DNA of 64,000 nucleotides from an uncultured Candidatus Saccharibacteria bacterium (GCA_964555185.1 CAZKRD010000003.1:83943-147942); one strand, 5' to 3'. Shown: positions 13,351-62,713, numbered from the stretch's first letter. The notes: generated by a model from the sequence alone, not told the origin. Numbers and translations: made by a program.

Positions 13351-13479
13351 GTTTTAATGATTTAATTTTAAAAAACAAAGAATAAGGTTTTGGTTTGAAA
13401 TGTTTCAAGTCAAAATTTTGCTTTTTGGATTACATTTTTTTAGAGAAAATTCTCGATCTTTTTTTTGGAGGGAGGAACC

Positions 13480-13668
13480 ATGGGTCAAACAAATAAGCTT
13501 CCGGACTATTGTATTGCGGGTGCCATAGGTAGGGCATGCTTACAATTGAAAGGTACTGGTTGTCCTGGTCATGATTTTTGTTACCGGGGAGATGAATGTA
13601 AAAAGAAAAGAAAGGAAAGGGGGACAATAGGCCATGGATCTGACACAGTTGATCAGTCACCAGTTTAG
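13480..13668 (+). CDS. Small Cys-rich hypothetical protein (62 aa, 6 Cys)
   Basis: The protein is MGQTNKLPDYCIAGAIGRACLQLKGTGCPGHDFCYRGDECKKKRKERG... A strong SD GGAGGGAGG at 13467-13475 precedes it. A terminator follows at 13790-13819. Confidence 0.45.
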   Translation: MGQTNKLPDYCIAGAIGRACLQLKGTGCPGHDFCYRGDECKKKRKERGTIGHGSDTVDQSPV

Positions 13669-13789: not shown

Positions 13790-13819
13790 AGGCCGATATA
13801 TCTAATCGGCCTTTTTTTG
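13790..13819 (+). terminator. Rho-independent terminator
   Basis: The stem aggccgatatatctaatcggcct is followed by TTTTTTT. Confidence 0.65.
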
Positions 13820-13863
13820 TTTGATTTAAAAAAACCAAAACCAGAGAAAAATTTTAGTTTTTG

Positions 13864-19034: not shown

Positions 19035-19250
19035 TTAGATCAACACATTAACTAAGGCTAAAGCCAGGAATACGATCGATAGAACTACCGTCGCTTTGAA
19101 AATGAATTTTTCCGCTCCCCGTTTGGTGCGATAGACATTGCCGTCGCCGCCAAATGTACTGCCCAGTCCCATGCCGCGCGCTTGCAATAAAATAGCGCCT
19201 GAAAGTAAAACAGCTAAAATAATCTGGACGATTTTAAGTATTTGTGACAT
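19035..19250 (-). CDS. secG: Preprotein translocase subunit SecG
   Basis: The protein is 71 aa with two TM helices. The LLQARGMGLGSTFGG loop is typical of SecG. Confidence 0.8.
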   Translation of the reverse strand: MSQILKIVQIILAVLLSGAILLQARGMGLGSTFGGDGNVYRTKRGAEKFIFKATVVLSIVFLALALVNVLI

Positions 19251-42511: not shown

Positions 42512-43618
42512 TTAAGGAGTTAGTTCTTGAAATTGGTTTGGGATTTTTAGGATTCTGGCAATCAAAGAAATTGCCCAGAGAAACATTAAGGTGCCGTGGA
42601 TGTCAGGTTCTCTTTTACCTTTTGTAATTTTGGCATTGTAATAATAAACATTGGCTTTATGAGGCAAGAGAGAAAAAGCACCGACTTTTGGGAAATAGTA
42701 ATCGTGATAAATGTGTTTTAATTGATTCTGGGCAAATCTTTTGATTTCAGCAGGTTGGTAATTACCACCTGCTTTTTTATAGGCATGATAGAGGACATAG
42801 AGGGTGTTTAGGATATCACAAGCTTGTTTTGATTCGGCAGGCGACCCACGGGTCGCCCCTACATATTTTATTTGTAAACAGAGATCAATTAGTTTTTCAG
42901 GATAGGAAATTGGGAGATAGTTAATTAGCCTAAAACCCGTGATTATTTTCATCGCGCCATTGATTTTTTCTTGCAGAGGAGGTTTGCCACAGTACCAGGC
43001 GCCGTCTTTTGAGTGTTCTAATCTAGCGATCAGTTTAAGAGCAAAGGTAGTAAGCTCTTTTTTGTTTTTTAGGTTGCTGTTTTGTAAGAAGAAAACAAGG
43101 TGAGAGAAATGACTGCCGGCGTCCCAAGGTTTCTGCCAGTTGAGTTTGTTAAGATACAGATTTATCCTCCTTTTTGTTTTTGGGAAATTTTGATAAGGAT
43201 GATCAGGCTTTGCGCTTAAGAGCTTGAGGCTAGAAATTGCTTGCCTGGTCTCCGCACGCTTAGTTTTTTGACCAAAAGCATTTTGGAAGTTAAGAGAGGT
43301 GAGAGCGGACGCAATATTGCGCGGTCGTGCCTTTCTTGAAACTAAAGGATCAGAGATGCTTCCGTCTTCTCTTTCAAAGCTTTTGATAAATTGAATTATC
43401 TCTTTTTTTTCTTTTGAGGGTAATTTTTCTAGTTGATTTAAAATATAATAAATCTTTACGGCGAACACAGTGTTGCCTAATCCCCATTTTATGTTTTCAT
43501 TATAGAGATCACCAGACAGACTATAATGGAAAAAACCGGGCGCTTTTTCGCCCTTTAATTTTTTTAAGAATTTAGGAATTGTATTTTTTAATTCAAAGAC
43601 CCAGTCTATGTTTTGCAT
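42512..43618 (-). CDS. Hypothetical protein (possible alpha/alpha-toroid fold); the annotated ORF start at 43675 runs into repeat copy C
   Basis: The 368-aa core has motifs DGSISD, DGAWYCG and IHGTLMFLWAISLI. The N-terminal MSLRERATARPKQSHSPLN of the long ORF is translated repeat, so the start is probably the Met at 43618 (MQNIDWV). Confidence 0.4.
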   Translation of the reverse strand: MQNIDWVFELKNTIPKFLKKLKGEKAPGFFHYSLSGDLYNENIKWGLGNTVFAVKIYYILNQLEKLPSKEKKEIIQFIKSFEREDGSISDPLVSRKARPRNIASALTSLNFQNAFGQKTKRAETRQAISSLKLLSAKPDHPYQNFPKTKRRINLYLNKLNWQKPWDAGSHFSHLVFFLQNSNLKNKKELTTFALKLIARLEHSKDGAWYCGKPPLQEKINGAMKIITGFRLINYLPISYPEKLIDLCLQIKYVGATRGSPAESKQACDILNTLYVLYHAYKKAGGNYQPAEIKRFAQNQLKHIYHDYYFPKVGAFSLLPHKANVYYYNAKITKGKREPDIHGTLMFLWAISLIARILKIPNQFQELTP

Positions 43619-44675
43619 ATTTAGTGGGGAATGAGATTGCTTCGGTCGGGCAGTAGCCCTTTCTCGCAATGACATTTAAGATTTTCCATTTCAAGATCGC
43701 GAGTTTGATTTGATAAAAATGAATTCGTTTGATTCTTTTGGCTTTGTATTCTTTGTCCTTTAGGATTCTTTTGGCAAAAGTATAGTATTCTTGAGCGGTT
43801 TTTTGCAAGGAAAATTGGGGGAGCCTAGATTGATAATTGTGATAATCATTTTTAACTTTTTCAATTTTGGCAATCACATTTTTTTTGCCTTGGAATAATT
43901 CCCCGCCGTTTTTTAAAAGTTCGGGATGGCCGCCGCTTCTTCTTGCGACAACCGGAAGACCGGAAGACAGGGCTTCGATTAGGGAATTAGAACAAGGGTC
44001 ATTGAGGCTGCCAGTGATAAAGATATCACTCCTCTTTAGGATTTGGCCTAGATTCTCGGGGACAAGCGGGGTTAACCATTTTATGTTTTTAAATTTGATT
44101 GGCGAGTTGCCGATAAAGTACATTGCATAGCGACCAAAATCTAAGTTCCGGTCTAAGTATTGATAGATAGCAAAGCCTTTGCGGATATTTTTTGACCAAC
44201 TGACAGCCACCACTACGGTTTTTCTATTGGGGCGGAATTTTATTTTTTCAATCTGGTTAAAGATTTCAGGGTCAGGAGCATTGTGGATTATGGTTTGGTA
44301 AGGAGAAACTAGACCAAAAGATTTTCTGTTTTGTCTTTGTGACCAGCTAGACTGGAAGACAATGCCGTCAGCAAAATTGCGGGCAAAGCAGGCAATGATT
44401 TTATCTATTGTTCTGTTTTTGCCGCGATAAAAAGAGATCGGTCCGTCAACACGATGGATAATGATTTTGTTTGGGTCTTTTTGTTTTAGCTCCCAGATTT
44501 TTTTAAAAAGATATTCTGCGCCAAAAGGATAACTGTTGAAAATAATAACCTCTGCTTCTTGAGGGGTTTTACTATAGACACCTTGCTTTTCCAATTCTTT
44601 CCTTAAAGCTTGCAAGAATTGATTGCCTCCTCCCCAAGGGCTTTTGCGGAAATTGTAGAGGACGTGGATTTTCAT
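43593..44675 (-). CDS. Glycosyltransferase family 1
   Basis: The C-terminal region is GLPVVARRSGGHPELLKNGGELF. Confidence 0.65.
   Translation of the reverse strand: MKIHVLYNFRKSPWGGGNQFLQALRKELEKQGVYSKTPQEAEVIIFNSYPFGAEYLFKKIWELKQKDPNKIIIHRVDGPISFYRGKNRTIDKIIACFARNFADGIVFQSSWSQRQNRKSFGLVSPYQTIIHNAPDPEIFNQIEKIKFRPNRKTVVVAVSWSKNIRKGFAIYQYLDRNLDFGRYAMYFIGNSPIKFKNIKWLTPLVPENLGQILKRSDIFITGSLNDPCSNSLIEALSSGLPVVARRSGGHPELLKNGGELFQGKKNVIAKIEKVKNDYHNYQSRLPQFSLQKTAQEYYTFAKRILKDKEYKAKRIKRIHFYQIKLAILKWKILNVIARKGYCPTEAISFPTKYAKHRLGL
43632..43674. repeat. MITE-like palindromic element, copy C (inverted orientation)
   Basis: The reverse complement of tgagattgcttcggtcgggcagtagccctttctcgcaatgaca matches the arms of copy A. 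Confidence 0.7.
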
Positions 44676-50228: not shown

Positions 50229-51200
50229 TTATGTTTTTGTTTTGTAATTTTTGGCGAATGTACCGGAAACAAGGGCAGCGAGAGCGACGCAGTTGCGCAG
50301 GAAGCTGACAAAAGGATAAAGAAGTATTACAGGATCCCTTTTTCGTTTTAGGGTCCAAACCAGAGGAGGGAGGGTGAGGAGCAAATAAGCAGCAATCAAG
50401 ATAAGTAATACGTAATATGTAATGGTTAATGTGTAAATAAGAAAGATTGAAAAGAAACCCAGTAAGATGATCAAGAGCTGGATCTGGATGATGTTGTCAT
50501 AAGAGTAAGAAGCAGAACCCTGCAGATAAGGACGGTAATAGGCATAGGCCCAAGAACGCTTTAAGAAGGACTTCAGGGTTGGCTTATAGTGGTGCCAGGC
50601 ATGAGCTTTTTTATTTAAAACGAGGCAAAAGCCCGACCCCACAAGCCGTAGGTTAAATTCGTTGTCAAAGGCGGCATTGATCAGTTCTTCTTTAAAAAAG
50701 CGGCTGACGCGGGAAAGAACAGAAGCGCGGTAGATAAGGTTAGCGGAGGTTAAGTGCAGGGGGCTTACCGACTGCTTCTTCATCTTGTATTCTACCTCGT
50801 AACCGGCAATCCGGGCAATCCAAGGGTCGTCCTCAAAGGGGTGTAAGATTCCGCCTACGCCGGCCACGCGGGAGTTCTTAAACTTTCGCAGGTTTTTCAA
50901 AAGCCACCTTTTTTCAATCCTGACATCCGATTCAACAAGAGCGACAAATTCATATTTTTTCGCTTTTTCTAAGCCCCGGTTTAAGGCGGCGGCCTGGCCT
51001 TTGTTTTTCTGGCCTAAAAGCTTGATCTCTCTGTATTTTTGAGCAAGCTTTTGGACAATCTCTCCTGAATTGTCTTGGGAGCCATCGTCAACCACGAGGA
51101 TCTCTTTTTGGAAGCCGCCTTTTTGCCTTAAAATTGAAAGCAGGGCGCCCTTGATCCAGCGCGCGTCGTTAAACAAACTGACGACAAAGAGAATTTTCAT
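50229..51200 (-). CDS. Glycosyltransferase family 2 with a C-terminal membrane anchor (two TM)
   Basis: The protein starts MKILFVVSLFNDARWIKGALLSILRQ... and has VVDDGSQDNS. The C-terminal TM pair is LLIILLGFFSIFLIYTL. Confidence 0.75.
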   Translation of the reverse strand: MKILFVVSLFNDARWIKGALLSILRQKGGFQKEILVVDDGSQDNSGEIVQKLAQKYREIKLLGQKNKGQAAALNRGLEKAKKYEFVALVESDVRIEKRWLLKNLRKFKNSRVAGVGGILHPFEDDPWIARIAGYEVEYKMKKQSVSPLHLTSANLIYRASVLSRVSRFFKEELINAAFDNEFNLRLVGSGFCLVLNKKAHAWHHYKPTLKSFLKRSWAYAYYRPYLQGSASYSYDNIIQIQLLIILLGFFSIFLIYTLTITYYVLLILIAAYLLLTLPPLVWTLKRKRDPVILLYPFVSFLRNCVALAALVSGTFAKNYKTKT

Positions 51201-52657
51201 TTTAAGATTCTGGTTATTATCTTTAGGTCTTTTGTGAGATTTTTGGGATTCCTATAGGTCCTGATCCGTTCTTTTAAAAATCCAAGCCTTAAATAAAAGT
51301 GGCGATAGGCCCATTTTTGCATTTTTTCCAACTCTTGATTAGAGAGATTGGGATAGGAGAGCAAAGCCCGGCGGCTTGGGTCTAATTTTTCGGTATTGAT
51401 TTTAAGGTATCCTTTCTTTTTACAAAAAGCGTGGTAAGGGGTGCCGGGAAAGGGGGTGGCAATCGAGAACATCACATTATTAACCTTCATTTTTTTGAGT
51501 TCTTTCACTGTATTTTTGATGTCAGCGACTGTTTCTTGGGGGCAGGTGCCAAAGACAATGTTGAATTTGGCTTCAATTCTGTATTTTTTGAGATTAGAAA
51601 GCGCCTTTTCAATATCATCGACCTTTAATCCTTTATGGATATAGTTTAATATTTTTTGATTTAGGCTTTCCACGCCGATATCAATGACCCTACAGCCGGC
51701 TTGGGCCAGTTTTTGAACAAGTTCAGGATCGGTCAGAAAATCAGCCCGAGAGAGACAGCCCCATTCTAAGTTAAGGTCGCGGATTCCGCTGCAGATTTTG
51801 ATTGTCCGTTTCCTGTCCCAGAGAAACTGGTCGTCAATAATCATCACGGCCCGAAAGCCCTGTTTTTTGATCAAGTTGAATTCAGAGATCACTCTTTCTG
51901 CCGAGAGCAGGCTGGGCGCTGGTTTGCCCTTGTGTTTTTTTAGGTGCTCTTGCTCGCGGGCAAAGCTTATACTGTTTGGAACGCAAAAAAGACAATGGAA
52001 AGCACAGCCGCGGGAAGTGATCATTACGGTTTGGGGGGAGCGCGAAAGCTTCGGGTTATAGTAGGACAGAGCATAATCGGCAATACTTTTATGCAGGCGG
52101 TCGAGAAGGGGAAATTTATTGATATCAAGAGGTTTTCCAGAGTAAGGCAGGTGGATGACCTCTCCTTTTTTTAAATAAGACAGGCTTTCTGGTTTACTTT
52201 TGGTTAAGAAACGGAGGATGTTTTCTTCTGGTTCTCCCCGGAAAACGATCAGATTAGGATCGAGAAGATATTCTCCGGGCACGCGCGTGGGTTCAGGGCC
52301 GTGGACCAAGACAAGGGAGCGGGGATTATACTTTCTTAACTTTTTGATCGTAAAGAGGTCGGCTTTTTTCGAAAGAATCACTGAATGGATGATATAGATT
52401 TTTGAATCATCCTGGGACAGTGTTTTTAAGAAAGCGGGCCAAGAGAGTTTGTCTAAAATAGCATCGAGGTAATTCATTTTGAAACCCTGCTTGTCCAAGA
52501 GGGTCAGGATGTAGAGATTGGCCAAATCCAGGGAATGGTAGAGTTGATAAGAACAGCCGAAGATTCTTTCGGGAATTTTTTTGGGATTTAAGCTGGGCGG
52601 TTCGATAAAAGTTATTTTCATTGAAGTTTTTTTTGTTTCCAAGCGAGAGCGTCGCAA
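51197..52657 (-). CDS. B12-binding-domain radical SAM enzyme (class B rSAM, methyltransferase-like)
   Basis: The N-terminal cobalamin-binding Rossmann-like region (MKITFIEPP...) is followed by the radical SAM motif ITSRGCAFHCLFCVP (CxxxCxxC). Length is 486 aa. Confidence 0.75.
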   Translation of the reverse strand: MRRSRLETKKTSMKITFIEPPSLNPKKIPERIFGCSYQLYHSLDLANLYILTLLDKQGFKMNYLDAILDKLSWPAFLKTLSQDDSKIYIIHSVILSKKADLFTIKKLRKYNPRSLVLVHGPEPTRVPGEYLLDPNLIVFRGEPEENILRFLTKSKPESLSYLKKGEVIHLPYSGKPLDINKFPLLDRLHKSIADYALSYYNPKLSRSPQTVMITSRGCAFHCLFCVPNSISFAREQEHLKKHKGKPAPSLLSAERVISEFNLIKKQGFRAVMIIDDQFLWDRKRTIKICSGIRDLNLEWGCLSRADFLTDPELVQKLAQAGCRVIDIGVESLNQKILNYIHKGLKVDDIEKALSNLKKYRIEAKFNIVFGTCPQETVADIKNTVKELKKMKVNNVMFSIATPFPGTPYHAFCKKKGYLKINTEKLDPSRRALLSYPNLSNQELEKMQKWAYRHFYLRLGFLKERIRTYRNPKNLTKDLKIITRILK

Positions 52658-53580
52658 AAAGCGCAGATTTTTTCCTGTTCAGCCCGGAAATGTTTAAATT
52701 TTTTGTTTGTCCAGATTTGGCTTAAAGTTTCCTCTCCCAGACTGCCGCAAATTTTGTTGCGCAGATTGCAGCAGGGCGCGGCCTTGCCGTCAACCGTGAT
52801 GTAAAGATGGTTGTCGGTTTTGAGGCATTTCCGGTCACAATCAGTCGCCAGATAACGGAACAGGTTAAACTGGTTAAGACAGAGGAATTTTAAATTAAGT
52901 TTTCTGGCGGCCTTTTTAGCGCGCCTGATTATTCTCTGTTCCTTTTGTGAAGAGGGTCGAGAGAGTTTGCTCCCCGGGTACTTGATTAGGCGAATCAGAT
53001 TGATTTTGTCCACTTTGTTTGCTGCGGCGAATTCGATCACATCTTTCACATCCCGGTATCCTTTTTGGCTGATAATGGTTTGGAGAGAGATCAAGGGGAG
53101 TTTTTTAGAACCCCTAATTTTAATGAAGTCCTTGATATTATTTAAGACTTGGATGTTGTTCTGATGGCCGGCGGAATTATTGTTGATTGCGTCGATTGAA
53201 AAAGAAACTTCGTAGATATTTGATTTAAGCAGATTTCTGGCCCAAGTCTGGTTTAAGAGAGATCCATTGGTTGTAAATTTTATTTTGCTTTTCGGAAATT
53301 TTTGGTTAATGTATTTTATCATTTTGGACAAGTCCTTGTGAAGCAGGGGTTCGCCCCAGCCAGTAAGGGTAATCGTCCGGGGGTGCTTTAGAGCGTCAAT
53401 CGCTTTTCGGAATGTTTTCCAGGTTATGTCCTTTTGTTTAGCTCCGATTAGTTTTCGGGGGCAGATTGGACAAGCAAAATTGCAGCGGTTAGTGATCTCG
53501 ATTTGGATCTCTTGGGGGTAGGGTTCTTGGACATTAAAAAACAAACAAAAAAACTTTTCTATTTTTTGAAAGAGGGCCAT
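52618..53580 (-). CDS. Radical SAM enzyme with a C-terminal SPASM/twitch Cys-rich domain
   Basis: The rSAM motif is EITNRCNFACPICP (CxxxCxxC). The C-terminal Cys cluster is ...GKAAPCCNLRNKICGS...CAFCDALAW. Length is 320 aa. Confidence 0.75.
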   Translation of the reverse strand: MALFQKIEKFFCLFFNVQEPYPQEIQIEITNRCNFACPICPRKLIGAKQKDITWKTFRKAIDALKHPRTITLTGWGEPLLHKDLSKMIKYINQKFPKSKIKFTTNGSLLNQTWARNLLKSNIYEVSFSIDAINNNSAGHQNNIQVLNNIKDFIKIRGSKKLPLISLQTIISQKGYRDVKDVIEFAAANKVDKINLIRLIKYPGSKLSRPSSQKEQRIIRRAKKAARKLNLKFLCLNQFNLFRYLATDCDRKCLKTDNHLYITVDGKAAPCCNLRNKICGSLGEETLSQIWTNKKFKHFRAEQEKICAFCDALAWKQKKLQ

Positions 53581-53740: not shown

Positions 53741-54127
53741 TTGGTTAGACAAAATTTAGATATAGCTGAATTTGCGATAAAAATTATGCCTGAAGGACAA
53801 AAGACGGAAGCTTCACCAACTCCTGCTCAAGGAGGACAAGACAAAGATGTTGAGGAGAATAAGGTCTTGGCGGCAATCAGCTACCTCTGGATTATCAGTT
53901 TGATCATTCTTCTGGTCAAGAAGGAGAGCGCGTTTGCCAAATTCCATGCCAAGCAGGGTCTTATTCTCTGGATCGCGTCAACCATCCTCTGGATTATTCC
54001 CTGGGTTGGCTGGGTCCTGAACATTGTAGTCTTTGTCTTCATCGTGATTGGTTTTATCAAGGCAATATCGGGCAAGTGGTGGAAGGTTCCTGGCGTTGGT
54101 CAACTGGCGGAAAAGATCAAGTTCTAA
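53741..54127 (+). CDS. DUF4870-like small membrane protein
   Basis: It matches the DUF4870 pattern (AAISYLW...FAKFHAKQGLILWI) and has two TM helices. The start is probably the Met at 53786. Confidence 0.55.
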   Translation: MVRQNLDIAEFAIKIMPEGQKTEASPTPAQGGQDKDVEENKVLAAISYLWIISLIILLVKKESAFAKFHAKQGLILWIASTILWIIPWVGWVLNIVVFVFIVIGFIKAISGKWWKVPGVGQLAEKIKF

Positions 54128-54196: not shown

Positions 54197-55648
54197 GTGT
54201 ATCAAAAAAGGACAAAAATCATCTGTACGATCGGGCCTTCATCTTCTGAAATGAGGGAGATTTTGGCTATGCTTAAAGCCGGGATGAATCTGGCCCGGAT
54301 AAATTTTTCCCACGGAAACGAGGAAGACAATGCTCATTTGGTAAGGCAGGTGCGCGGCGCGGCCAAAGCTTTGGGTCGAGCAGTGGCGGTTATCCAAGAT
54401 TTGCAAGGAGCGCGGGTCAGGGTGAGCAGTGTTAAGAGGGGAGGTTTAGAGTTACGGGAAGGGGAAGTGGCGGTGATTACAACCGGATCAATCTCGGCAA
54501 AAGAAAAAGAAGGAGAGGGTAAGAGTAAGGTCTTTCAAGTTACTTATAAAAAGTTAGCTCGCGACTTGGGGCGGGGGAGTATTATTTTAATCGATGACGG
54601 CTTGATTAAGTTAAAGGTTTTGAGCATCCGAGGGGGAAAAATCAAATGCCGGGTTGTGATTGGCGGGATCTTAACCCAAGGGCGGGGGATGAATTTTCCC
54701 AGCACTACTTTGGGCCTGCCCGCAATTACAGTAAAAGACCGTAAAGATTTAGAGGATGGCATTAAACTCGGCGTTGATTATGTTGCCCTTTCTTTTGTCC
54801 AGGGGCCAGAAGACATTGTCGCTTTGAAGAGGTTGATTAAGATTTATGAAGATTGCGCTTTGCCGCGGACTAAAGTGATTGCCAAGATTGAGAAGCAAGG
54901 GGCCTTAGACAACTTTGACAAGATTTTGGCCGAGACCGATGCGGTGATGATTGCCCGCGGCGATTTGGGGATTGAGGTTGATCCTACTCGTTTGCCTCTA
55001 ATCCAGAAAGAGATCATTATTAAGTGTTTGGAGGCGATAAAGCCGGTGATTGTTGCGACCCAAATGCTGGACTCAATGCAGGATAAGCCGCGTCCGACCC
55101 GGGCGGAAGTTTCTGATGTTGCGGCCGCGGTTATCGACCACACTGACGCGGTGATGCTTTCTCAAGAAACCGCGACAGGCAAATATCCAGTGGCGGCGGT
55201 AAAGGTGATGGCCCAAACCGCTTGCAGGACCGAACATTCGCGCTATGATGACATTATTTACCATAACGGTATTCAAAAAGAGTTTTCATCTGTTTCCGCG
55301 ATGAGCCGCTCGGCCTGTGTCCTTGCTTCTGATATTAAGGCCAAGGCAATATTGGTTACTACTCGTTCCGGCTTTTCCGCCCGCAGTCTGATAAGCCACC
55401 GGCCAGAGATGAACGCGATCATTGCCGTAACTAACAGTTTGAATGTTTACCGCGAGCTTTCTTTGTCTTGGGGGATCACCCCTTATTTGATCCGTGATTT
55501 CCGCGATGGCCAGGAACTAATTAGCAAAAGCATTAAAGCGATCAAAGCGGATGGCTTAGTTCGAGCCCAAGACAAGGTCGTGGTTATGACCGGCTTTAAA
55601 GAACGAGGCGACGGCTGGTCCAGTTCTCTCCGGGTTGTCGAGATTTGA
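54197..55648 (+). CDS. pyk: Pyruvate kinase
   Basis: The N-terminal signature is RTKIICTIGPSS...MNLARINFSHG. The K+/substrate motif MIARGDLGIEV is present. Length is 483 aa. Confidence 0.95.
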   Translation: MYQKRTKIICTIGPSSSEMREILAMLKAGMNLARINFSHGNEEDNAHLVRQVRGAAKALGRAVAVIQDLQGARVRVSSVKRGGLELREGEVAVITTGSISAKEKEGEGKSKVFQVTYKKLARDLGRGSIILIDDGLIKLKVLSIRGGKIKCRVVIGGILTQGRGMNFPSTTLGLPAITVKDRKDLEDGIKLGVDYVALSFVQGPEDIVALKRLIKIYEDCALPRTKVIAKIEKQGALDNFDKILAETDAVMIARGDLGIEVDPTRLPLIQKEIIIKCLEAIKPVIVATQMLDSMQDKPRPTRAEVSDVAAAVIDHTDAVMLSQETATGKYPVAAVKVMAQTACRTEHSRYDDIIYHNGIQKEFSSVSAMSRSACVLASDIKAKAILVTTRSGFSARSLISHRPEMNAIIAVTNSLNVYRELSLSWGITPYLIRDFRDGQELISKSIKAIKADGLVRAQDKVVVMTGFKERGDGWSSSLRVVEI

Positions 55649-55672
55649 CTTTTTTTAATTTTGAGGTATAAT
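55644..55672 (+). promoter_or_regulatory. Putative sigma70 promoter TTTGAC-N17-TATAAT immediately after pyk
   Basis: tttgac is at 55644-55649 and tataat at 55667-55672. Confidence 0.4.
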
Positions 55673-55754
55673 AAATTATCCTTTCATTCACGCTGTTTTT
55701 TGGTTTTTAAAATTTTGGATTTTTGTAACCTTTTTTGTATTCAGGGAGGGTGAT

Positions 55755-55910
55755 GTGGTGTTCAAAAAGAGAAAGAGCAACACGAAGAGTGAAAATGGCA
55801 AAGGGAAGTGTGGAGCATGTTCGCACTTCTGGGGTTGCCGGAATAAGGGTAAGAATATAGGATTATTGACGCAACAACCCGAAGATTGCAAAGAACGTGG
55901 TTTAAAGTAG
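55755..55910 (+). CDS. Small Cys-rich basic peptide (51 aa; VVFKKRKSNTKSENGKGKCGACSHFWGCRNKGKNIGLLTQQPEDCKERGLK), GTG start
   Basis: I translated it by hand. The SD AGGGAGGG at 55744-55751 lies directly upstream. It is not in the ORF track (<60 aa). Confidence 0.3.
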   Translation: MVFKKRKSNTKSENGKGKCGACSHFWGCRNKGKNIGLLTQQPEDCKERGLK

Positions 55911-55942
55911 ATTGTGCGGCGAAACCCGAAAGGAGGTTTTGG

Positions 55943-55999
55943 ATGAAACGACAGTTTTGTTTTGCTTGTTTAATCTGCGTTTCCTTCCCGGTCCATTAA
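55943..55999 (+). CDS. Micro-ORF, 18 aa (MKRQFCFACLICVSFPVH), with a perfect SD
   Basis: AGGAGG is at 55931-55936, 6 nt before ATG 55943. The stop TAA is at 55997-55999 (hand translation). Confidence 0.3.
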   Translation: MKRQFCFACLICVSFPVH

Positions 56000-56124
56000 A
56001 GGAGGTGATCCTAATTGCAGAAAACCGGGAAATGGTTCTTTAGAAATAATCACAGTCCTCCTTATGTTCACGAATCTTGAAAAAAGAATCAAGAACTAAA
56101 ACCAAATAATGGGAGGACCGATAA

Positions 56125-56370
56125 ATGCCGCGACATAAAGTTACGCAGGAAGCAAGGGATTTCTGGCAGGCTCTGGAAGAGCTGTTGGGAGAGCGATTTT
56201 CTGGGATAAAGGCCTTGATAATTGTTAAGCCAAAAGGCAATTATATAATTGTTTTGATTTCAGTCAAGGCGGTCAGGTTGTTGGGTTTAGGAGGAAGACG
56301 TCGGAGATTCAGGGGTAGTTCGGAAGTTGTGATACATGGAATCTCCAAAGAAATGAGTGCAGCTGCTTGA
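56125..56370 (+). CDS. Hypothetical 81-aa protein
   Basis: SD GGGAGG is at 56111-56116. The protein is MPRHKVTQEARDFWQALEELLGERFSGIKALIIVKPKGNYIIVLISVKAV... I found no recognisable domain. Confidence 0.35.
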   Translation: MPRHKVTQEARDFWQALEELLGERFSGIKALIIVKPKGNYIIVLISVKAVRLLGLGGRRRRFRGSSEVVIHGISKEMSAAA

Positions 56371-56482
56371 ACTAGGTAGGTTTACTCTTGCGTGGAGGTA
56401 AGCTTGGGGTGTGCGAAAAGCATGCCCTCTTTTCTTTTTGGCTAAAATTGGTTAGAATTTAGAGTGTAGAGTAATGAATTCT

Positions 56483-56570
56483 GAAGAGGTGCCTGAGCGG
56501 TCGAAAGGGCTTGCTTGGAGAGCAAGTGTATCCATTTTGGGTACCGAGGGTTCGAATCCCTCCCTCTTCG
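56483..56570 (+). tRNA. tRNA-Ser (anticodon GGA), 88 nt, no encoded CCA
   Basis: The acceptor is GAAGAGG/CCTCTTC. The anticodon stem-loop is cttgc-TTGGAGA-gcaag. It has a long variable arm and T-arm AGGGTTCGAATCCCT. Confidence 0.8.
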
Positions 56571-56590
56571 CAAAGTTTAGTTAGAAAAAA

Positions 56591-57232
56591 ATGAAAATCA
56601 AAAATAGAATCAGTGTTTCGAACATTAGAATTGCGGATTTCAAGAGCGGCAAATTCAGGAAACAATTGCCGGAGCTTTATGAATTAAAAAAGGTCATTGA
56701 AAACAATAGCTGGCATAACAATGATCCTGTCTTTGATCATACAATCGCTACTTTGGAAGAGCTTGATGGATTGTTGAAAAAAGCAAAAGGTAAAATTAAT
56801 TCGCGTCTCAATCAAAAAGTAGATCAACACACAAGAAAAGAATTGTTATTCTTGAGTGCGCTTTTTCATGACATTGCTAAAAAAGAGACTTACGTTTTAG
56901 AAGAAGATGATCAAACCTCTTGCTTAAATCATGAAAAGACTGGCGCTTGTAAAGCAAAGAAGATTCTAGAGAGATTTGATTTATCAGACAAAGAAAAAGA
57001 GATTGTGGTTAAGATTATTAAGTATCATGGCGAGATTCATGTTATACTAGATATAGGTAATGAGAATTTAGAGGGGGATTACGAAGCATTAAAGGCTAAA
57101 CATTCTGATATTTTTCTGGAGTTGATTCTGCTCGCAACAGCAGATACCCTAGCCAGTCAATTGAAAGACAACAATCCCGAAAAGTTTAACTATAGAATGG
57201 ACTTTTACCATAATATTTATGAAAACTTCTAA
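56591..57232 (+). CDS. HD-domain phosphohydrolase
   Basis: The H...HD metal motif reads VFDHT...LSALFHDIAKKETY, with a downstream LLATADTLAS Asp. Length is 213 aa. Confidence 0.6.
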   Translation: MKIKNRISVSNIRIADFKSGKFRKQLPELYELKKVIENNSWHNNDPVFDHTIATLEELDGLLKKAKGKINSRLNQKVDQHTRKELLFLSALFHDIAKKETYVLEEDDQTSCLNHEKTGACKAKKILERFDLSDKEKEIVVKIIKYHGEIHVILDIGNENLEGDYEALKAKHSDIFLELILLATADTLASQLKDNNPEKFNYRMDFYHNIYENF

Positions 57233-59469: not shown

Positions 59470-61257
59470 ATGAACGAAGTCGAAGAGATAAAAAATCGTC
59501 TTAATATCGCGGATGTTATTTCAGAATACATTCAACTGACTCAAGCAGGGGTGAATTACAAGGCCCGTTGTCCTTTTCATGATGAAAAAACACCCTCCTT
59601 TTTTGTTGCTCCAGATAAACAGATTTGGCATTGTTTCGGTTCTTGTGATGAAGGAGGGGACATTTTTACCTTTGTCCAGAAAATGGAAGGGATTGAATTC
59701 AGAGAGGCCTTGAAGATACTGGCGGATCGAGCGGGCGTGAAGTTGACCCCCCGTAATCCGCAGGCAGAGTCTAAAAAGAATCGCCTGCTCGAAGTCTGTG
59801 ATTGGGCAGCCAGGTTCTTCCATCAAGCCCTTCTCCGTTCCAAAGAGGCCCAGATCGCCCGCGACTATTTGGCCTCGCGTAAGGTAGAAAAGAAATCAAT
59901 CGAAGAATTTATTTTAGGTTATTCGCCTAATTCCTGGGATCTTTTAAGTCGGTTTTTGCGGAAAAGAGGTTACCATGATTTAGAGATCGCGCAAGCCGGA
60001 CTTTCGGTTCAAAAGAACCAGGGTAAATTTTATGACCGCTTCCGCGGCCGCTTGATTTTTCCGATTAACAACATCCACGGCCAGACCTTGGGCTTTGGCG
60101 CGCGGGTTTTGGACGAACAACGCGATCCTTTGGGCAAATACATCAATTCCCCTCAAAGTTTAATTTATGATAAAAGTGGAGTGCTTTATGGTTTGGATCG
60201 GGCCAAGAATGAGATCAAGAAGCGAGGTTTCTGCATTGCGGTTGAAGGCTATTTGGACGTGATTACTTCGCATGCCATTAGCATTCGCAATGTAATCAGC
60301 GTGTCCGGCACAGCCTTAACCCTAAGACAGATAGGTTTGATCAAACGCTACGGCAAGAACCTCGCTCTTTCTTTTGACGCGGATTCAGCCGGGTTCCAGG
60401 CCGCGAAAAAAGGGATTGACAATGCGATCGCCACCGGTATGAACGTAAAGGTTATTGTCTTGCCCCCTGGTGAAGATCCGGATTCTTTGATTAAAAAAGG
60501 CCCCAAACTCTGGCGAGCAGCGATTAAGCGAGCCCAGTCCGTGATGGATTTTTACTTTAACCGCGCCTTTGGCGACCATAACTCTAAAGAATTAGAAGGA
60601 AAAAAATTGATTGCCGCTGAGCTCCTGCCTGTGATCAAAAAAATACCAGACGACATTGAACAAGCGCATTATTTGCAGGAGCTCTCTAGCAAGATTGAAA
60701 TGAAGGAAGAAATTTTGCGTAAAGCAATGGACAAGGTTAGTTTTGACCAAAGACCCAAAACACAAGAGACAGAAGAGTCTCCCCAAGGCGTGGATTCTGG
60801 TTTATCTCTGGAAGAAGTCTTGGGCCGTCGTATTTTGGGTTTGGGCTTGAGGTATCCCCGCTTTCTAGGTCAGATTTTAAAAGGAGTAAAGACAACGATT
60901 CTTCCATCTTATCTCCAGGAGATTTACAGGATCTTAAAAAAATATTATAATAAAGATGAAGCTTTTGTTTTCAGTGATTTTAAGCGGAAAATAGAATCTT
61001 CGCATCCTAGTTTAGCCTCTAAAATAGATGTGGCTGTTTTGGGTGTTGAGAAAGATTTTGAGCAAGAAACAGAGGAAAGTGTGATTTCAGAAGAGCTGGA
61101 AGCTAACTTGAAACGTTTGCAAAAAGAATATTTGCAGAAAGAGTTAAAAGAGCTTGAGATTGAAATCAAAAAAGCAGAAGATGAAGGGAATAGAGCGACA
61201 TTGAAAGAATTAACAGAGAGATTTTCCTCTCTAACCCAGGGGCTTGCAGGACTGTAA
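59470..61257 (+). CDS. dnaG: DNA primase
   Basis: The CHC2 zinc finger is CPFHDEKTPSFFVAPDKQIWHCFGSC. A Toprim domain is present (EGYLDVIT, DAD). The gene is upstream of rpoD in the conserved operon. Confidence 0.9.
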   Translation: MNEVEEIKNRLNIADVISEYIQLTQAGVNYKARCPFHDEKTPSFFVAPDKQIWHCFGSCDEGGDIFTFVQKMEGIEFREALKILADRAGVKLTPRNPQAESKKNRLLEVCDWAARFFHQALLRSKEAQIARDYLASRKVEKKSIEEFILGYSPNSWDLLSRFLRKRGYHDLEIAQAGLSVQKNQGKFYDRFRGRLIFPINNIHGQTLGFGARVLDEQRDPLGKYINSPQSLIYDKSGVLYGLDRAKNEIKKRGFCIAVEGYLDVITSHAISIRNVISVSGTALTLRQIGLIKRYGKNLALSFDADSAGFQAAKKGIDNAIATGMNVKVIVLPPGEDPDSLIKKGPKLWRAAIKRAQSVMDFYFNRAFGDHNSKELEGKKLIAAELLPVIKKIPDDIEQAHYLQELSSKIEMKEEILRKAMDKVSFDQRPKTQETEESPQGVDSGLSLEEVLGRRILGLGLRYPRFLGQILKGVKTTILPSYLQEIYRILKKYYNKDEAFVFSDFKRKIESSHPSLASKIDVAVLGVEKDFEQETEESVISEELEANLKRLQKEYLQKELKELEIEIKKAEDEGNRATLKELTERFSSLTQGLAGL

Positions 61258-61282
61258 TTTTTTAATTTACTAGACTTACACT

Positions 61283-62713
61283 GTGACACGCAAAAAGAAC
61301 AAAACAAAAAGAGGCAAGCCCGCCTTGCCCGCAAAGCGAGGCAGGCCGCGTAAAAAACCCCGGCGCAAGACTGTCCCAAGGAAAACGGTTAAAGCCCGCC
61401 GCAGAAAAGAAACTGTCAAAAGGAAACCAAAGACCACTCGGAAAACCACACGCCGTAGAAAGTCTGCTATTCGCAAGACTGTTCGCAAGAAAGGCAAAAC
61501 CCGCGCTTATGCCAGTAAGAGCAAGAAAAGAACTCCTCGTCGCAAAAAAGCAGCAAGGAGATATAGGTCCGCCTTGCCCGCAAAGCGAGGCAGGCGTCCG
61601 CGAATAAGCAAAAAATCCAAACCCAAGCCAAAAGTATACAAGCTTAAGTATCTTTTCAAGAAAGGAAAGCAGCAGGGTTTTATTACCGAGAATGAACTCC
61701 TTGCCGCCATCCCTGAAATAGAGGAACAGGGTGAGGTTTTAGATCAGTTTTTAAGTGAATTAGACAGAGAAGGGATTGGGCTCCAAGAGACGAGCAGAGA
61801 CCTGATTAAGATCGAGACTAAAGCCGAGGGAATGAAAAAGCGTTCAAAAGAGGAGGAAATTTTTGCAAGAACTTTGGATCTTGGGGATATTTCTTCGGAT
61901 TCAGTCCAGATGTATTTGCGGGAGATTGGCAAGGTCCCTCTTTTGACCGGAGAGCAAGAGGTTGATTTAGCAAAGCGGCAGGAGAAGGGCGAACGGGAAG
62001 CAAAGAAACAACTGATTGAGGCCAACCTTCGTTTAGTGGTTTCCGTGGCCAAGAAATACGCCGGCCGTTCTCTTTCTCTTCTGGATTTGATTCAAGAAGG
62101 AAACATCGGTCTTTTTCGTGCTGTAGAGAAGTTTGATTACCGCCGGGGTTATAAATTTTCTACTTACGCGACTTGGTGGATCCGCCAGGCAATCACGAGA
62201 GCGTTAGCAGATCAGTCACGCACAATCCGAATCCCGGTTCATATGGTGGAGACGATCAACAAATTCACCCAGACTGAGCGGCGGCTGGTTCAGGACTTGG
62301 GCCGCGAGCCGATGCCGGAAGAGATCGCCGCCGAGATGGGGATCCCCTTGGAAAAGGTCCGCCAGATTTTGAAAGTTTCCCAAGAGACTGTTTCTTTAGA
62401 GACCACAGTAGGAGAAGATGATGAGGATTCCACCTTGGGTGATTTTATTGAAGACCAAAAGACACCCACGCCAGACCGCTTAGCCAGCCGTGAGCTTTTA
62501 AGGAATCATATCCAGGATGTAATTGGCGATCTGAACCCTCGGGAACAAAAGATTTTGAGTATGCGCTTTGGTTTGGCTGATGGTATTTCTCGTACCCTTG
62601 AAGAAGTAGGGAGGGAATTCGGCGTTACCCGTGAGCGGATCCGCCAGATTGAAGCCAAGGCCCTAGAAAAAATCCGAGACCATCATTTGGTGAAGAGATT
62701 GAAGGATTATTAA
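61283..62713 (+). CDS. rpoD: RNA polymerase sigma factor RpoD with a 115-aa extremely basic N-terminal extension carrying two AT-hook motifs
   Basis: Regions 2-4 are present ([61 protein letters not shown], ...[20 protein letters not shown]). The N-terminus has [11 protein letters not shown] and [13 protein letters not shown]. Confidence 0.9.

What the first reader, a model, noticed from the sequence alone, without database searches (positions are those of the whole stretch)
55644..56460. Cluster of micro-ORFs with near-perfect Shine-Dalgarno sequences, including a 13-nt full anti-SD complement, in a genome whose genes mostly lack SD
Almost all annotated genes here (ftsK, recA, groES, groEL, dnaG, pmm, rnj and others) have AT-rich leaders with no SD. 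Three stretches break this pattern. Upstream of the 62-aa Cys-rich ORF at 13480 sits GGAGGGAGG. In the 0.8-kb spacer between pyk and tRNA-Ser sit AGGGAGGG before a 51-aa ORF (CGACSHFWGC), AGGAGG before an 18-aa ORF (MKRQFCFACLICVSFPVH), AAGGAGGTGATCC before a 21-codon TTG-ORF, and GGGAGG before an 81-aa ORF. AAGGAGGTGATCC is an exact complement of the canonical 16S 3' tail. That same SD can pair with the downstream atcacagtcctcc, making a possible SD-sequestering hairpin. A sigma70-like promoter (TTTGAC-N17-TATAAT) lies at the pyk stop. Possible readings are Cys-rich RiPP-like precursor peptides, regulatory leader peptides or a riboregulator for the 81-aa ORF, or horizontally acquired highly expressed small proteins. 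A SPASM radical SAM enzyme is about 2.3 kb away at 52618-53580, but pyk and a DUF4870 gene intervene.
Basis: partly seen in the sequence, partly recalled or inferred. Interest (0 to 1): 0.62.

Follow-up and report, generated by a model that had tools for sequence, protein, structure and literature searches.

The report
Shine-Dalgarno-dependent small-protein operon in CPR
The 0.8-kb "spacer" is a real, evolutionarily conserved operon of two small proteins and two micro-peptides, found only in a small group of ultra-small (Doudnabacteria-like CPR) bacteria. It keeps strong classical ribosome-binding sites in genomes whose other genes have none, so it looks like a dedicated, specially regulated translation unit.

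Summary
All four SD-led ORFs sit at the stated coordinates. In the window, 53 long ORFs have essentially no SD: the median predicted SD:anti-SD energy is -1.8 kcal/mol and 4 of 53 carry a 4-mer core. The four small ORFs score -10.2 to -21.5.

The spacer is not an Rfam RNA and not a RiPP locus. It is a self-contained operon with its own promoter, four cistrons and a terminator. It is conserved directly downstream of pyk in nine Doudnabacteria-like loci.

All 27 cistron starts in those loci have an SD of at least 5 nt, spaced 2-9 nt from the start codon. The neighbouring genes lack SD in the relatives as well.

The 81-aa protein and the 51-aa Cys-rich protein are under purifying selection (pN/pS 0.24-0.47). 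Both belong to rare families with no Pfam, NCBIfam, PDB or phage relative.

The 13-nt SD serves a conserved micro-ORF whose peptide ends in FF..[H/R]SPP, a RAPP-like stalling motif. Its Pro-Pro codons (CCUCCU) are predicted to pair with the SD of the 81-aa gene (probability 0.93-1.0 in three loci). This suggests leader-peptide control.

Protein function is unknown. The lineage's 16S tail could not be retrieved.

The parts
55645..55672 (+). Sigma-70-type promoter TTGACT-16-TATAAT. It overlaps the pyk stop codon (TGA lies within ATTTGAC).
   Evidence: 11 of 12 consensus positions. ATTTGAC-N17-TATAAT is conserved in 8 of 9 related loci (alignment A4; L066; L076 keeps only the -10 region and the start region).
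55673..55742 (+). U-rich 5' leader of the operon transcript (inferred transcription start about 55679).
   Evidence: There are 3 differences in the first 94 aligned columns between the window and L066. Synonymous sites of the adjacent pyk differ by 0.19. In L053, L061, L057 and L065 the same position holds a short hairpin plus a U-run.
55743..55750 (+). SD of the Cys-rich gene (AGGGAGGG, followed by TGAT).
   Evidence: (-11.6 kcal/mol). An SD of 5-10 nt is present before this ORF in all 6 loci that carry the gene.
55755..55910 (+). 51-aa lysine-rich protein with CxxC...C...C (probably zinc-binding). GTG start.
   Evidence: Homologues of 42-53 aa occur at the same position in L065, L060, L076, L064 and L057 (alignment A9). 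pN/pS is 0.28-0.47 with an excess of third-position changes. No Pfam, NCBIfam, PHROG or PDB match.
55930..55937 (+). SD of micro-ORF 1 (AAGGAGGT).
   Evidence: (-12.8 kcal/mol). The same GAAAGGAGG is present in L060 and L076.
55943..55999 (+). Micro-ORF 1: an 18-aa hydrophobic peptide, MKRQFCFACLICVSFPVH. Its stop codon abuts the next SD.
   Evidence: Counterparts are MKGIIRIFARLIFLSSPA (L060) and MVKYVVSLILETSPAPR (L076). In L076, L053 and L061 the stop of the upstream micro-ORF lies inside the next SD.
55999..56011 (+). 13-nt SD AAGGAGGTGATCC of micro-ORF 2. It is the full complement of the canonical 16S 3' tail.
   Evidence: It is unique in the window and scores -21.5 kcal/mol. A GGAGGTGA(T)-type SD with a 9-12 nt match stands before the equivalent micro-ORF in 6 of the 7 loci that have it. 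In the seventh, L066, it is AAGGGGGTGA.
56015..56080 (+). Micro-ORF 2 (TTG start): the 21-aa peptide (M)QKTGKWFFRNNHSPPYVHES. It is a candidate leader or arrest peptide.
   Evidence: Counterparts are MQMTGKWFFRNNHSPPYALIGNLR (L066), MRKAGKELFFDRSPP* (L060) and MIGGELFFAHSPPF* (L076). All 3 nucleotide differences within GKWFFRNNHSPPY between the window and L066 are synonymous. RSPP and HGPP are published arrest-prone motifs (PMC12992588).
56055..56062 (+). Anti-SD mimic GUCCUCCU, which is the Ser-Pro-Pro codons 14-16 of micro-ORF 2. It can pair with the SD of the 81-aa gene or with the 13-nt SD.
   Evidence: Its pairing with 56111-56118 has probability 1.00 in the ensemble. The SD is 0.00 unpaired, against 0.46 when the upstream sequence is shuffled, and 0 of 30 shuffles were as low. 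The same pairing appears in L060 (0.93) and L076 (0.99). The alternative helix with the 13-nt SD is -12.2 kcal/mol, and it shows a GGAGG:CCUCC to GGGGG:CCCCC double change in L066.
56111..56118 (+). SD of the 81-aa gene (GGGAGG) plus AC.
   Evidence: An SD is present before this ORF in 9 of 9 loci, with a spacer of 6-9 nt.
56125..56370 (+). 81-aa basic alpha/beta protein with a conserved GLGxRRRRFxG loop. It founds a rare lineage-restricted family.
   Evidence: A profile search of 1.84 billion cluster representatives gave 11 hits, all 66-91 aa. The AF2 model has pLDDT 85.6 with topology H-E-E-H-E-H. pN/pS is 0.24-0.46. No Pfam, NCBIfam, PADLOC, PHROG, PDB or BFVD relative.
56406..56438 (+). 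Intrinsic terminator: a 9-bp stem followed by CTTTTCTTTT.
   Evidence: A hairpin plus U-tract sits at the same position in all loci.
56429..56460 (+). Near-invariant block CTTTTCTTTTTGGCTAAAATTGGTTAGAAT. It is the terminator U-tract fused to a promoter-like element for the downstream tRNA.
   Evidence: It is the most conserved stretch of alignment A4. It is identical in L066 and present in L076. The promoter role is inferred (TTTTCT-17-TAGAAT).
56483..56571 (+). tRNA-Ser(GGA), the downstream boundary of the unit.
   Evidence: A tRNA-Ser also follows the operon in L053, L060, L061, L064, L065, L066 and L076.

Best explanation
The pyk-tRNA-Ser spacer is a conserved polycistronic operon of small genes, restricted to Doudnabacteria-like CPR bacteria.

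It is transcribed from its own sigma-70 promoter on the pyk stop codon and ends at an intrinsic terminator. In the window it has four cistrons:
- a 51-aa Lys-rich 4-Cys protein,
- an 18-aa hydrophobic peptide,
- a 21-aa peptide,
- an 81-aa basic alpha/beta protein.

Shown: unlike the rest of the genome, which starts translation from AT-rich SD-less leaders, every cistron of this operon has a canonical SD at canonical spacing. This has been maintained through divergence that has nearly saturated synonymous sites (pS 0.7-1.0 between the more distant loci).

Inferred: the lineage therefore keeps a canonical 16S tail (..GAUCACCUCCUUA) and reserves SD:anti-SD initiation for this unit and very few others.

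Inferred, less certain: expression of the 81-aa gene is gated by the preceding micro-ORF.
- In the free mRNA, the Ser-Pro-Pro codons of the micro-ORF (GUCCUCCU) pair with the SD of the 81-aa gene.
- A ribosome recruited by the 13-nt SD translates the peptide ..FFxx[H/R]SPP and pauses or stalls on the RAPP-like motif.
- This melts the helix and exposes the downstream SD.
- The upstream micro-ORF, whose stop codon touches the 13-nt SD, would feed ribosomes into this relay.

The biochemical role of the two proteins is unknown. Both are strongly basic, so nucleic-acid or ribosome binding is my guess.
For: Operon anatomy:
- Rfam finds no RNA family in the spacer.

Conservation:
- The same unit lies directly downstream of pyk in the window, L066, L060, L076, L064, L053/L054, L061, L057 and L065 (alignment A4).

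SD exception:
- 27 of 27 cistron starts have an SD of at least 5 nt with a spacer of 2-9 nt.
- Flanking genes in the window and in four relatives lack SD.
- GGAGG is enriched in the spacer, P = 3e-4.

Coding:
- pN/pS is 0.24-0.47, with an excess of third-position changes in the more divergent pairs, for both proteins.
- The AF2 model of the 81-aa protein has pLDDT 85.6.
- The family has 11 members among 1.84e9 cluster representatives, all 66-91 aa.
- The micro-ORF 2 peptide motif is kept in frame in four loci, and 3 of 3 substitutions against L066 are synonymous.

Gate:
- Predicted pairing of the SPP codons with the SD of the 81-aa gene has probability 1.00 (window), 0.93 (L060) and 0.99 (L076). 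[quoted passage not shown]
- In the window, 0 of 30 shuffled controls were as sequestered.
- RSPP and HGPP are documented arrest-prone motifs, and RAPP-like motifs cluster near the C-termini of small upstream ORFs (PMC12992588).
- The stop of the upstream micro-ORF lies in or next to the 13-nt-type SD in the window, L076, L053 and L061.
Against: - The 16S 3' end of this lineage was not available. About half of Parcubacteria reportedly lack the CCTCCT motif (PMC9297842).
- There are no expression data.
- The gate model rests on 3-4 loci. L066 has a central A-C mismatch in that helix and its SD is predicted open. L057 and L065 have no micro-ORFs at all. L064, L053 and L061 have micro-ORFs without PP.
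- Any CCUCC will pair with any of the four SDs at similar energy, so the pairing could be a by-product of Pro-Pro codons.
- The window's motif is HSPP, not RxPP. Arg is reported as irreplaceable in SecM-type arrest.
- [RH]xPP also occurs twice in ordinary proteins of the window.
- Between the closest pair, the 81-aa gene shows an almost flat codon-position profile (18/16/21). Its pN is 7-fold that of pyk, so constraint on the protein is weak.
Confidence: 0.6

Rival explanations
1. Independent small genes only. The four ORFs are simply separately translated small proteins with strong SDs. The SD/CCUCC pairings and the HSPP motif are incidental, and there is no leader-peptide regulation.
For: - All SDs pair with the CCUCC segment at comparable energies.
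- The helix is imperfect in L066 and L076.
- Five of nine loci lack the SPP micro-ORF yet keep the SD-led 80-aa gene.
- [RH]xPP occurs in ordinary proteins of the window.
Against: - SD sequestration is predicted at probability 0.93 or higher, with the partner at the same distance, in three loci.
- The micro-ORF, its extended SD and its peptide motif are conserved.
- The stop of the upstream micro-ORF is consistently placed on the SD.
Confidence: 0.25
2. Non-coding RNA. The transcript acts as a structured or sponge RNA. For example, it could titrate the 16S 3' tail or 30S subunits, or carry a STAB-SD-like 5' stabiliser against RNase J. Under this reading the ORFs are fortuitous.
For: - Six GGAGG motifs lie in 0.8 kb.
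- The 13-nt match to the 16S tail is longer than initiation needs.
- The 5' leader is more conserved than synonymous sites of pyk.
- Folding z-score is -2.1.
- STAB-SD is recalled from my own knowledge (Agaisse and Lereclus 1996).
Against: - No Rfam family matches even at E <= 10.
- The ORFs keep frame, length and peptide motifs, with pN/pS below 0.5.
- Every SD is 2-9 nt from a start codon.
- The internal part is highly variable in content between loci.
- The z-score is modest and based on only 20 shuffles.
Confidence: 0.06
3. RiPP locus. The Cys-rich 51-aa peptide, and possibly the micro-ORFs, are precursors modified by the nearby radical SAM/SPASM and B12-radical SAM enzymes.
For: - The Cys-rich small ORF lies 2.3 kb from a SPASM radical SAM gene (52618-53580) and a B12-binding radical SAM gene (51197-52657).
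- There are weak sub-threshold similarities to RiPP maturases such as CcpM and ApyD.
Against: - The radical SAM genes are on the opposite strand, separated by DUF4870 and pyk.
- L053, L054, L061 and L056 have glycosyltransferases there instead.
- L056 and L057 share the same pyk protein. L057 keeps the Cys ORF, and L056 shows no rSAM gene nearby.
- L066 keeps the rSAM genes but has lost the Cys ORF.
- No NCBIfam or Pfam precursor family matches.
- All maturase hits are far below their curated cut-offs.
Confidence: 0.03
4. Mobile or conflict module. This would be a type I toxin-antitoxin-like or recently acquired cassette next to a tRNA gene. The hydrophobic 18-aa peptide would be the toxin, and foreign SD signals would reveal its origin.
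For: - An 18-aa hydrophobic peptide is present.
- SD-sequestering helices are predicted.
- A strong promoter-like site lies on the minus strand at 56267-56240.
- Gene content is variable, and the 81-aa protein evolves fast.
- The unit is adjacent to a tRNA. L063 has an IS insertion and L061 has a GIY-YIG ORF nearby.
Against: - The position between pyk and tRNA-Ser is fixed in nine loci spanning 62-72% pyk identity. This indicates vertical inheritance.
- GC content is like the surroundings.
- There are no phage, plasmid-type or defence-family relatives.
- The hydrophobic micro-ORF is present in only 3 of 9 loci.
Confidence: 0.06

Closest known systems
The rpsU (bS21) extended SD in Bacteroidia, whose ribosomes are otherwise 'SD-blind' (Jha 2021 PMC7797042; McNutt 2023 PMC9976891; Naeem 2026 PMC13000453)
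   Same: The genome is almost devoid of SDs, yet one small basic-protein transcription unit keeps a strong, extended, evolutionarily conserved SD. This implies that the anti-SD is retained for a dedicated purpose.
   Different: - The phylum is different (CPR).
- The SD-led genes are not rpsU and match no ribosomal-protein family.
- Four cistrons are SD-led rather than one.
- Sequestration of the anti-SD by bS21/bS18/bS6 and autoregulation are unknown here.
- The 16S tail has not been seen.
RAPP-like ribosome arrest peptides (SecM-secA, ApdA, ApdP, ApcA; RxPP and HGPP motifs; Sakiyama 2021 PMC7897499; Morici 2024 PMC10951233; Fujiwara 2025 PMC12992588)
   Same: A short ORF with an [R/H]SPP motif at or near its C-terminus lies directly upstream of a gene. 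That gene's SD is predicted to be sequestered by the very codons on which the ribosome would stall.
   Different: - The peptide is only 14-24 aa, too short to sense secretion.
- The window's motif is HSPP, not RAPP or RGPP.
- The downstream gene is an unknown 81-aa protein, not a Sec or YidC component.
- Arrest has not been tested.
Leader-peptide translational attenuation of erm and cat resistance genes (own knowledge)
   Same: The leader ORF is of similar size and has its own SD. A ribosome on the leader remodels a hairpin that hides the downstream SD.
   Different: There is no resistance gene and no known inducer. The stalling motif is of a different type.
SCIFF/ranthipeptide-type Cys-rich RiPP precursors with SPASM maturases
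   Same: A Cys-rich peptide of about 45 aa lies within a few kb of a SPASM radical SAM gene.
   Different: - There is no adjacency, co-orientation or co-occurrence with the maturase.
- No precursor-family match.
- The Cys pattern is CxxC...C...C with a Lys-rich N-terminus, typical of a small zinc-binding protein.
STAB-SD mRNA stabiliser of Bacillus thuringiensis cryIIIA (own knowledge)
   Same: A very long SD-like sequence in a 5' region could hold a 30S subunit and protect the mRNA in an organism that has RNase J.
   Different: Here the long SD is followed at 4-7 nt by a conserved start codon and a conserved peptide. It lies mid-transcript, not at the 5' end.

Membership tests
Rfam structured RNA (any of 4227 families) | A covariance-model match at or near the gathering score within 55649-56482 | tested here: not met
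   Only the tRNA-Ser passes. In E-value mode the best spacer hits are 14-28 bits against gathering scores of 34-95 bits.
Bacteroidia-type SD-poor genome with a dedicated SD-led gene | Genome-wide paucity of SD upstream of ordinary genes | tested here: met
   4 of 53 long ORFs have a 4-mer SD core and the median dG is -1.8. 30 of 30 flanking genes in relatives lack SD. Only 64 kb plus a few loci were sampled.
Bacteroidia-type SD-poor genome with a dedicated SD-led gene | A canonical anti-SD (CCUCC) retained at the 16S 3' end | not testable with these tools
   There is no rRNA in the window and the collection scans were exhausted. Retention is inferred from the conserved GGAGGTGA(T) in 6 of the 7 loci that have the micro-ORF. 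The literature reports loss of the motif in about half of Parcubacteria.
Bacteroidia-type SD-poor genome with a dedicated SD-led gene | The SD-led gene encodes bS21 (rpsU) | tested here: not met
   No Pfam or NCBIfam hit of any small ORF to Ribosomal_S21 or any other family. The predicted fold is alpha/beta, not a helical hairpin. No rpsU lies upstream of dnaG-rpoD in the window.
RAPP-like arrest peptides | A C-terminal core R-[A/G/S]-P-[P/G] in a small ORF | tested here: inconclusive
   L060 has RSPP followed directly by the stop codon. The window, L066 and L076 have HSPP, with His replacing the Arg that is described as essential.
RAPP-like arrest peptides | The ORF lies upstream of a gene whose SD is masked by a structure that the stalled ribosome would open | tested here: met
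   Predicted pairing of the SPP codons with the downstream SD has probability 1.00, 0.93 and 0.99 in the window, L060 and L076. It is not predicted in L066. This is in silico only.
RAPP-like arrest peptides | Experimentally demonstrable elongation arrest | not testable with these tools
   This needs toeprinting, a peptidyl-tRNA assay or Ribo-seq.
RiPP precursor with radical SAM/SPASM maturase | The precursor gene is adjacent to and co-occurs with the maturase across genomes | tested here: not met
   In the window the genes are 2.3 kb apart on opposite strands, with two unrelated genes between them. L053, L054, L056 and L061 have no rSAM there. L066 has the rSAM but no Cys ORF.
RiPP precursor with radical SAM/SPASM maturase | A match to a known precursor or maturase family above the curated cut-off | tested here: not met
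   The peptides give no NCBIfam or Pfam hit. The best scores are well below the cut-offs: the SPASM protein scores 138.8 bits against 380, and the B12-binding protein scores 160.9 bits against 577.6.
Type I toxin-antitoxin | A small hydrophobic toxin ORF with an overlapping antisense RNA | tested here: inconclusive
   An 18-aa hydrophobic ORF and a minus-strand promoter-like site exist. However, the ORF is present in only 3 of 9 loci, and the antisense site lies inside the 81-aa ORF with only partial conservation.

The most novel reading that the evidence does not exclude
This CPR lineage has abandoned SD-led initiation genome-wide but retains the anti-SD solely to run a small 'SD regulon'. 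The basic products of that regulon (the 4-Cys 51-aa protein and/or the 81-aa protein) are lineage-specific ribosome-associated factors. They would act as functional analogues of bS21, binding at or near the 16S 3' tail. Free anti-SD would then feed back on their own synthesis, with an HSPP arrest peptide as the sensor. This would be an independent, non-homologous reinvention of the Bacteroidia rpsU circuit.
Probability: 0.08. Interest if true: 0.85.

Novelty: new variant of a known kind. Interest (0 to 1): 0.6.

Why it matters
How bacteria that have given up Shine-Dalgarno initiation still use, or eventually lose, the anti-SD is an open question. So far it has been worked out only in Bacteroidia, where a single gene (rpsU) keeps a strong SD for autoregulation.

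This locus shows a second, unrelated lineage in which SDs survive in one small conserved operon against an SD-free background. The lineage is a CPR/Parcubacteria-type bacterium with a genome of about 0.7 Mb.

It gives a concrete handle for three things:
- Testing whether the anti-SD is functional in CPR ribosomes.
- Finding out what the last SD-dependent genes do.
- Testing a compact candidate arrest-peptide switch (14-24 aa, [H/R]SPP) in organisms that cannot be cultured alone.

It also defines two new small-protein families that standard annotation misses or leaves unnamed.

Tried and rejected
- Rfam, gathering and E-value modes: nothing in the spacer.
- Pfam, NCBIfam, PADLOC and PHROGs on all small ORFs and their homologues: nothing.
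- Word-indexed homologue search with the 81-aa ORF alone found only itself. The family emerged only from synteny, a profile search and the full HMMER scan.
- pyk scan of GTDB species representatives: best hit 44% identity, no usable relative.
- Near-identical contigs from other samples (L048-L052) were 100% identical and therefore uninformative.
- Metagenome protein-pattern scan: no confirmed relative.
- Foldseek against PDB and BFVD: no match with E <= 0.07. Weak dsRBD-like hits are not trustworthy.
- PDB sequence profiles: nothing.
- Phage tblastn and the IMG/VR scan: nothing.
- Single-sequence AF2 of the 51-aa protein: pLDDT 58, unusable.
- Whole-transcript folding: z = -2.1, too weak to argue for a global RNA structure.
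- Supplement look-up for the anti-SD status of Doudnabacteria: no files held.
- The two other large gaps in my crude gene list are ordinary genes: secG at 19035-19250 and a 360-aa ORF at 43593-44675.

Full report
**What is in the sequence**

- AGGGAGGG-N4-GTG, opening a 51-aa Cys-containing ORF (55755-55910).
- AAGGAGGT-N5-ATG, opening an 18-aa ORF (55943-55999).
- AAGGAGGTGATCC-N3-TTG, opening a 21-aa ORF (56015-56080).
- GGGAGG-N8-ATG, opening an 81-aa ORF (56125-56370).

A promoter, TTGACT-16-TATAAT, lies on the pyk stop codon (55645-55672). An intrinsic terminator lies at 56406-56428 and is followed by a T-run. The spacer is therefore bounded like a transcription unit of about 760 nt. Rfam finds nothing in it, either at gathering thresholds or at E <= 10.

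**Is the SD cluster exceptional?**

Yes.
- A crude gene list of 53 long ORFs shows AT-rich leaders almost everywhere.
- Scored against the canonical tail GAUCACCUCCUUA, the median leader gives -1.8 kcal/mol. That is weaker than random 20-mers from the same window (-3.9).
- Only 4 of 53 leaders have a GGAG, GAGG or AGGA core at -18..-4.
- The four small ORFs give -11.6, -12.8, -21.5 and -10.2 kcal/mol.
- GGAGG occurs six times on the + strand of the 834-nt spacer against 0.9 expected (P = 3e-4).
- The 12-mer AAGGAGGTGATC is unique in the window.

**Where the window comes from, and its relatives**

The 81-aa ORF and pyk are found verbatim on a 706,972-bp scaffold (ENA ERZ23486238) and on identical Logan contigs.

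GTDB species representatives hold no close relative; the best pyk hit is 44% identical. The large protein collection does hold pyk proteins at 62-72% identity, one of them named Candidatus Doudnabacteria.

I fetched their contigs and later those of family members. This gave eight further independent loci: L066, L060, L076, L064, L053/L054, L061, L057/L058 and L065. In each, DUF4870-pyk is followed by the same kind of unit and usually by tRNA-Ser.

**What is conserved** (alignment A4)
- The promoter on the pyk stop codon, in 8 of 9 loci.
- A U-rich leader. Some loci have a short hairpin plus a U-run here.
- The 80-91-aa ORF, in 9 of 9 loci.
- The Cys-rich 42-53-aa ORF (CxxC...C...C with a Lys-rich N-terminus), in 6 of 9 loci (alignment A9).
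- A micro-ORF preceded by an extended SD, in 7 of 9 loci. The SD is GGAGGTGA(T)-type in six of them and AAGGGGGTGA in L066.
- The terminator, fused to a nearly invariant block CTTTTCTTTTTGGCTnAAATTGGnTAGAAT.

A table of all 27 cistron starts shows an SD of at least 5 nt, and up to 12 nt, with a spacer of 2-9 nt in every case. None of the 30 flanking genes in four relatives has one. The SD exception is therefore an inherited property of this operon across divergence that has nearly saturated synonymous sites (pS 0.7-1.0 between the more distant loci).

**Coding or RNA?**

The 81-aa family:
- pN/pS is 0.24-0.46. Third-position changes are in excess in the more divergent pairs.
- A five-sequence alignment gave a confident AF2 model: pLDDT 85.6, topology helix-strand-strand-helix-strand-helix.
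- A profile scan of 1.84 billion cluster representatives found only 11 members, all 66-91 aa.
- The word-indexed search with the single sequence had found only itself, which explains why the ORF looked like an orphan.

The Cys-rich family has pN/pS 0.28-0.47.

Neither family matches Pfam, NCBIfam, PADLOC, PHROGs, PDB sequences, PDB folds or viral folds. Both proteins are strongly basic.

Between the closest pair (window and L066), pyk has pN 0.026 and pS 0.19. The 81-aa gene has pN 0.18 and pS 0.39, with a nearly flat codon-position profile. The protein is real but evolves fast.

**The micro-ORFs**

The ORF behind the 13-nt SD has clear counterparts:
- Window: (M)QKTGKWFFRNNHSPPYVHES
- L066: MQMTGKWFFRNNHSPPYALIGNLR
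- L060: MRKAGKELFFDRSPP*
- L076: MIGGELFFAHSPPF*

The start codon, the FF and the [H/R]SPP stay in one frame despite indels. The three nucleotide differences between the window and L066 inside GKWFFRNNHSPPY are all synonymous.

L064, L053 and L061 have shorter aromatic peptides after the same SD: MGGFVLFYFH, MMRGKVKFLFLVPI and MRGDWFRFPT.

The 18-aa hydrophobic micro-ORF has counterparts in L060 and L076. In the window, L076, L053 and L061, the stop codon of the upstream micro-ORF lies in or directly before the extended SD. That geometry favours termination-reinitiation.

**The hairpin**

- That helix is possible (-12.2 kcal/mol).
- It is the RNAalifold consensus of four loci.
- In L066 it shows a double change, GGAGG:CCUCC to GGGGG:CCCCC.
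- L076 has CCCCCC opposite an unchanged GGAGG, so the covariation is not consistent. The T-to-C change is also synonymous within Pro codons.

Ensemble folding shows a stronger alternative. The same segment GUCCUCCU is the Ser-Pro-Pro codons 14-16 of the micro-ORF. It pairs with the SD of the 81-aa gene, GGGAGGAC.
- The pairing probability is 1.00 in the window, 0.93 in L060 and 0.99 in L076.
[quoted passage not shown] - L066 does not show it.

**Proposed mechanism**

Shown: the region is a conserved SD-led small-gene operon.

Inferred: the lineage keeps a canonical 16S tail. The conserved motif extends to GGAGGTGAT in loci that share no flanking sequence, and that is hard to explain otherwise.

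Inferred, with lower confidence: a leader-peptide gate.
- [R/H]SPP resembles the RxPP and HGPP class of arrest-prone sequences.
- RSPP is partly arrest-competent in ApdA and ApdP. It was recovered in random screens and is under-represented in proteomes.
- Such motifs cluster near the C-termini of small ORFs upstream of regulated genes (PMC12992588; see also PMC7897499 and PMC10951233).
- A ribosome paused on SPP would sit exactly on the segment that masks the downstream SD.

Weaknesses of the gate model:
- The window has His rather than Arg.
- Five loci lack the SPP micro-ORF.
- Any CCUCC pairs with any SD.
- [RH]xPP is not absent from ordinary proteins of the window.

**Rejected readings**

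RiPP precursor:
- The SPASM and B12 radical SAM genes are on the other strand, beyond pyk and DUF4870.
- Glycosyltransferases replace them in L053, L054, L056 and L061.
- L066 retains them although it has lost the Cys ORF.
- They reach no RiPP-maturase cut-off.

Recent horizontal or phage origin:
- The position is fixed in nine loci.
- GC content is ordinary.
- There is no viral relative.

Pure ncRNA: see the coding evidence above.

**Comparison with what is known**

The nearest precedent is Bacteroidia. There the ribosomes sequester the anti-SD, and a single gene, rpsU, keeps an extended SD for autoregulation (PMC7797042, PMC9976891, PMC13000453). The present case shares that logic: an SD-free genome with one conserved SD-led unit of small basic proteins. 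It differs in phylum, in genes and in having four SD-led cistrons.

For CPR bacteria, the literature reports frequent loss of bS21 and loss of the anti-SD motif in about half of Parcubacteria (PMC9297842). Whether this lineage retains the motif is therefore the key missing fact. I could not retrieve its 16S rRNA because the collection scans and contig look-ups were exhausted.

**Verdict**

This is a real feature, conserved and not previously described as far as the searched libraries show. It is best classed as a new variant of a known kind: a dedicated SD-dependent unit in an SD-poor genome, with a candidate arrest or leader-peptide switch.

Confidence is high for the operon and for the SD exception. 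It is moderate to low for the gating mechanism. The protein functions are unknown.

Noticed in passing
window 13467-13668 (terminator-like hairpin about 13790-13820): A 62-aa Cys-rich ORF (MGQTNKLPDYCIAGAIGRACLQLKGTGCPGHDFCYRGDECKKK...) is preceded by GGAGGGAGG (dG -11.4). It is the only other clear intergenic SD-led ORF in the 64 kb. It has no Pfam or PADLOC hit. It may belong to the same 'SD regulon'.
   Followed up: partly
L061 4400-4760: A 5' fragment of tRNA-Ser (ggagaggtcgcat...) is followed by a GIY-YIG endonuclease ORF (4461-4721) and then by an intact tRNA-Ser start. This looks like a homing-endonuclease-type insertion at the tRNA next to the operon.
   Followed up: no
L063 53-1410: The homologue of the 81-aa gene is truncated to 66 aa (P0124) by an insertion sequence (HTH_Tnp_1 plus an rve transposase). 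The gene can therefore be lost or disrupted in nature.
   Followed up: no
window 56267-56240, minus strand: A strong promoter-like site, TTGACT-16-TATAAT (11 of 12 consensus positions), lies inside the 81-aa ORF and points antisense toward the micro-ORFs. It is partly kept in L066 (TTGGCT-16-TATGAT) but overlaps Ile-rich codons, so it may be fortuitous.
   Followed up: partly
window 55725-55990 versus L066 2824-2852: L066 is the closest relative and its pyk differs from the window's at pN 0.026. It lacks about 230 nt that contain the Cys-rich gene and micro-ORF 1. It keeps the leader, micro-ORF 2, the 81-aa gene and the terminator block.
   Followed up: yes
window 55673-55724 and 56429-56470: The non-coding ends of the unit are more conserved than synonymous sites of pyk (pS 0.19). 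The leader has 3 differences in the first 94 aligned columns. The block CTCTTTTCTTTTTGGCTAAAATTGGTTAGAATTTAGAGT is identical in L066 and near-invariant in all nine loci.
   Followed up: partly
window 59470-62713: dnaG (59470-61257) and rpoD (61283-62713) are adjacent, as in the classical rpsU-dnaG-rpoD operon. No rpsU lies upstream; a divergently oriented class IV aminotransferase sits there instead. This is consistent with the reported frequent absence of bS21 in Parcubacteria, but it is not proof.
   Followed up: partly
window 53741-54127 and 56591-57232: Gene callers disagree on the starts of the DUF4870 gene (113 versus 128 aa) and the HD-domain gene (188 versus 213 aa) on identical DNA. 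This is a practical consequence of the SD-less leaders in this genome.
   Followed up: no
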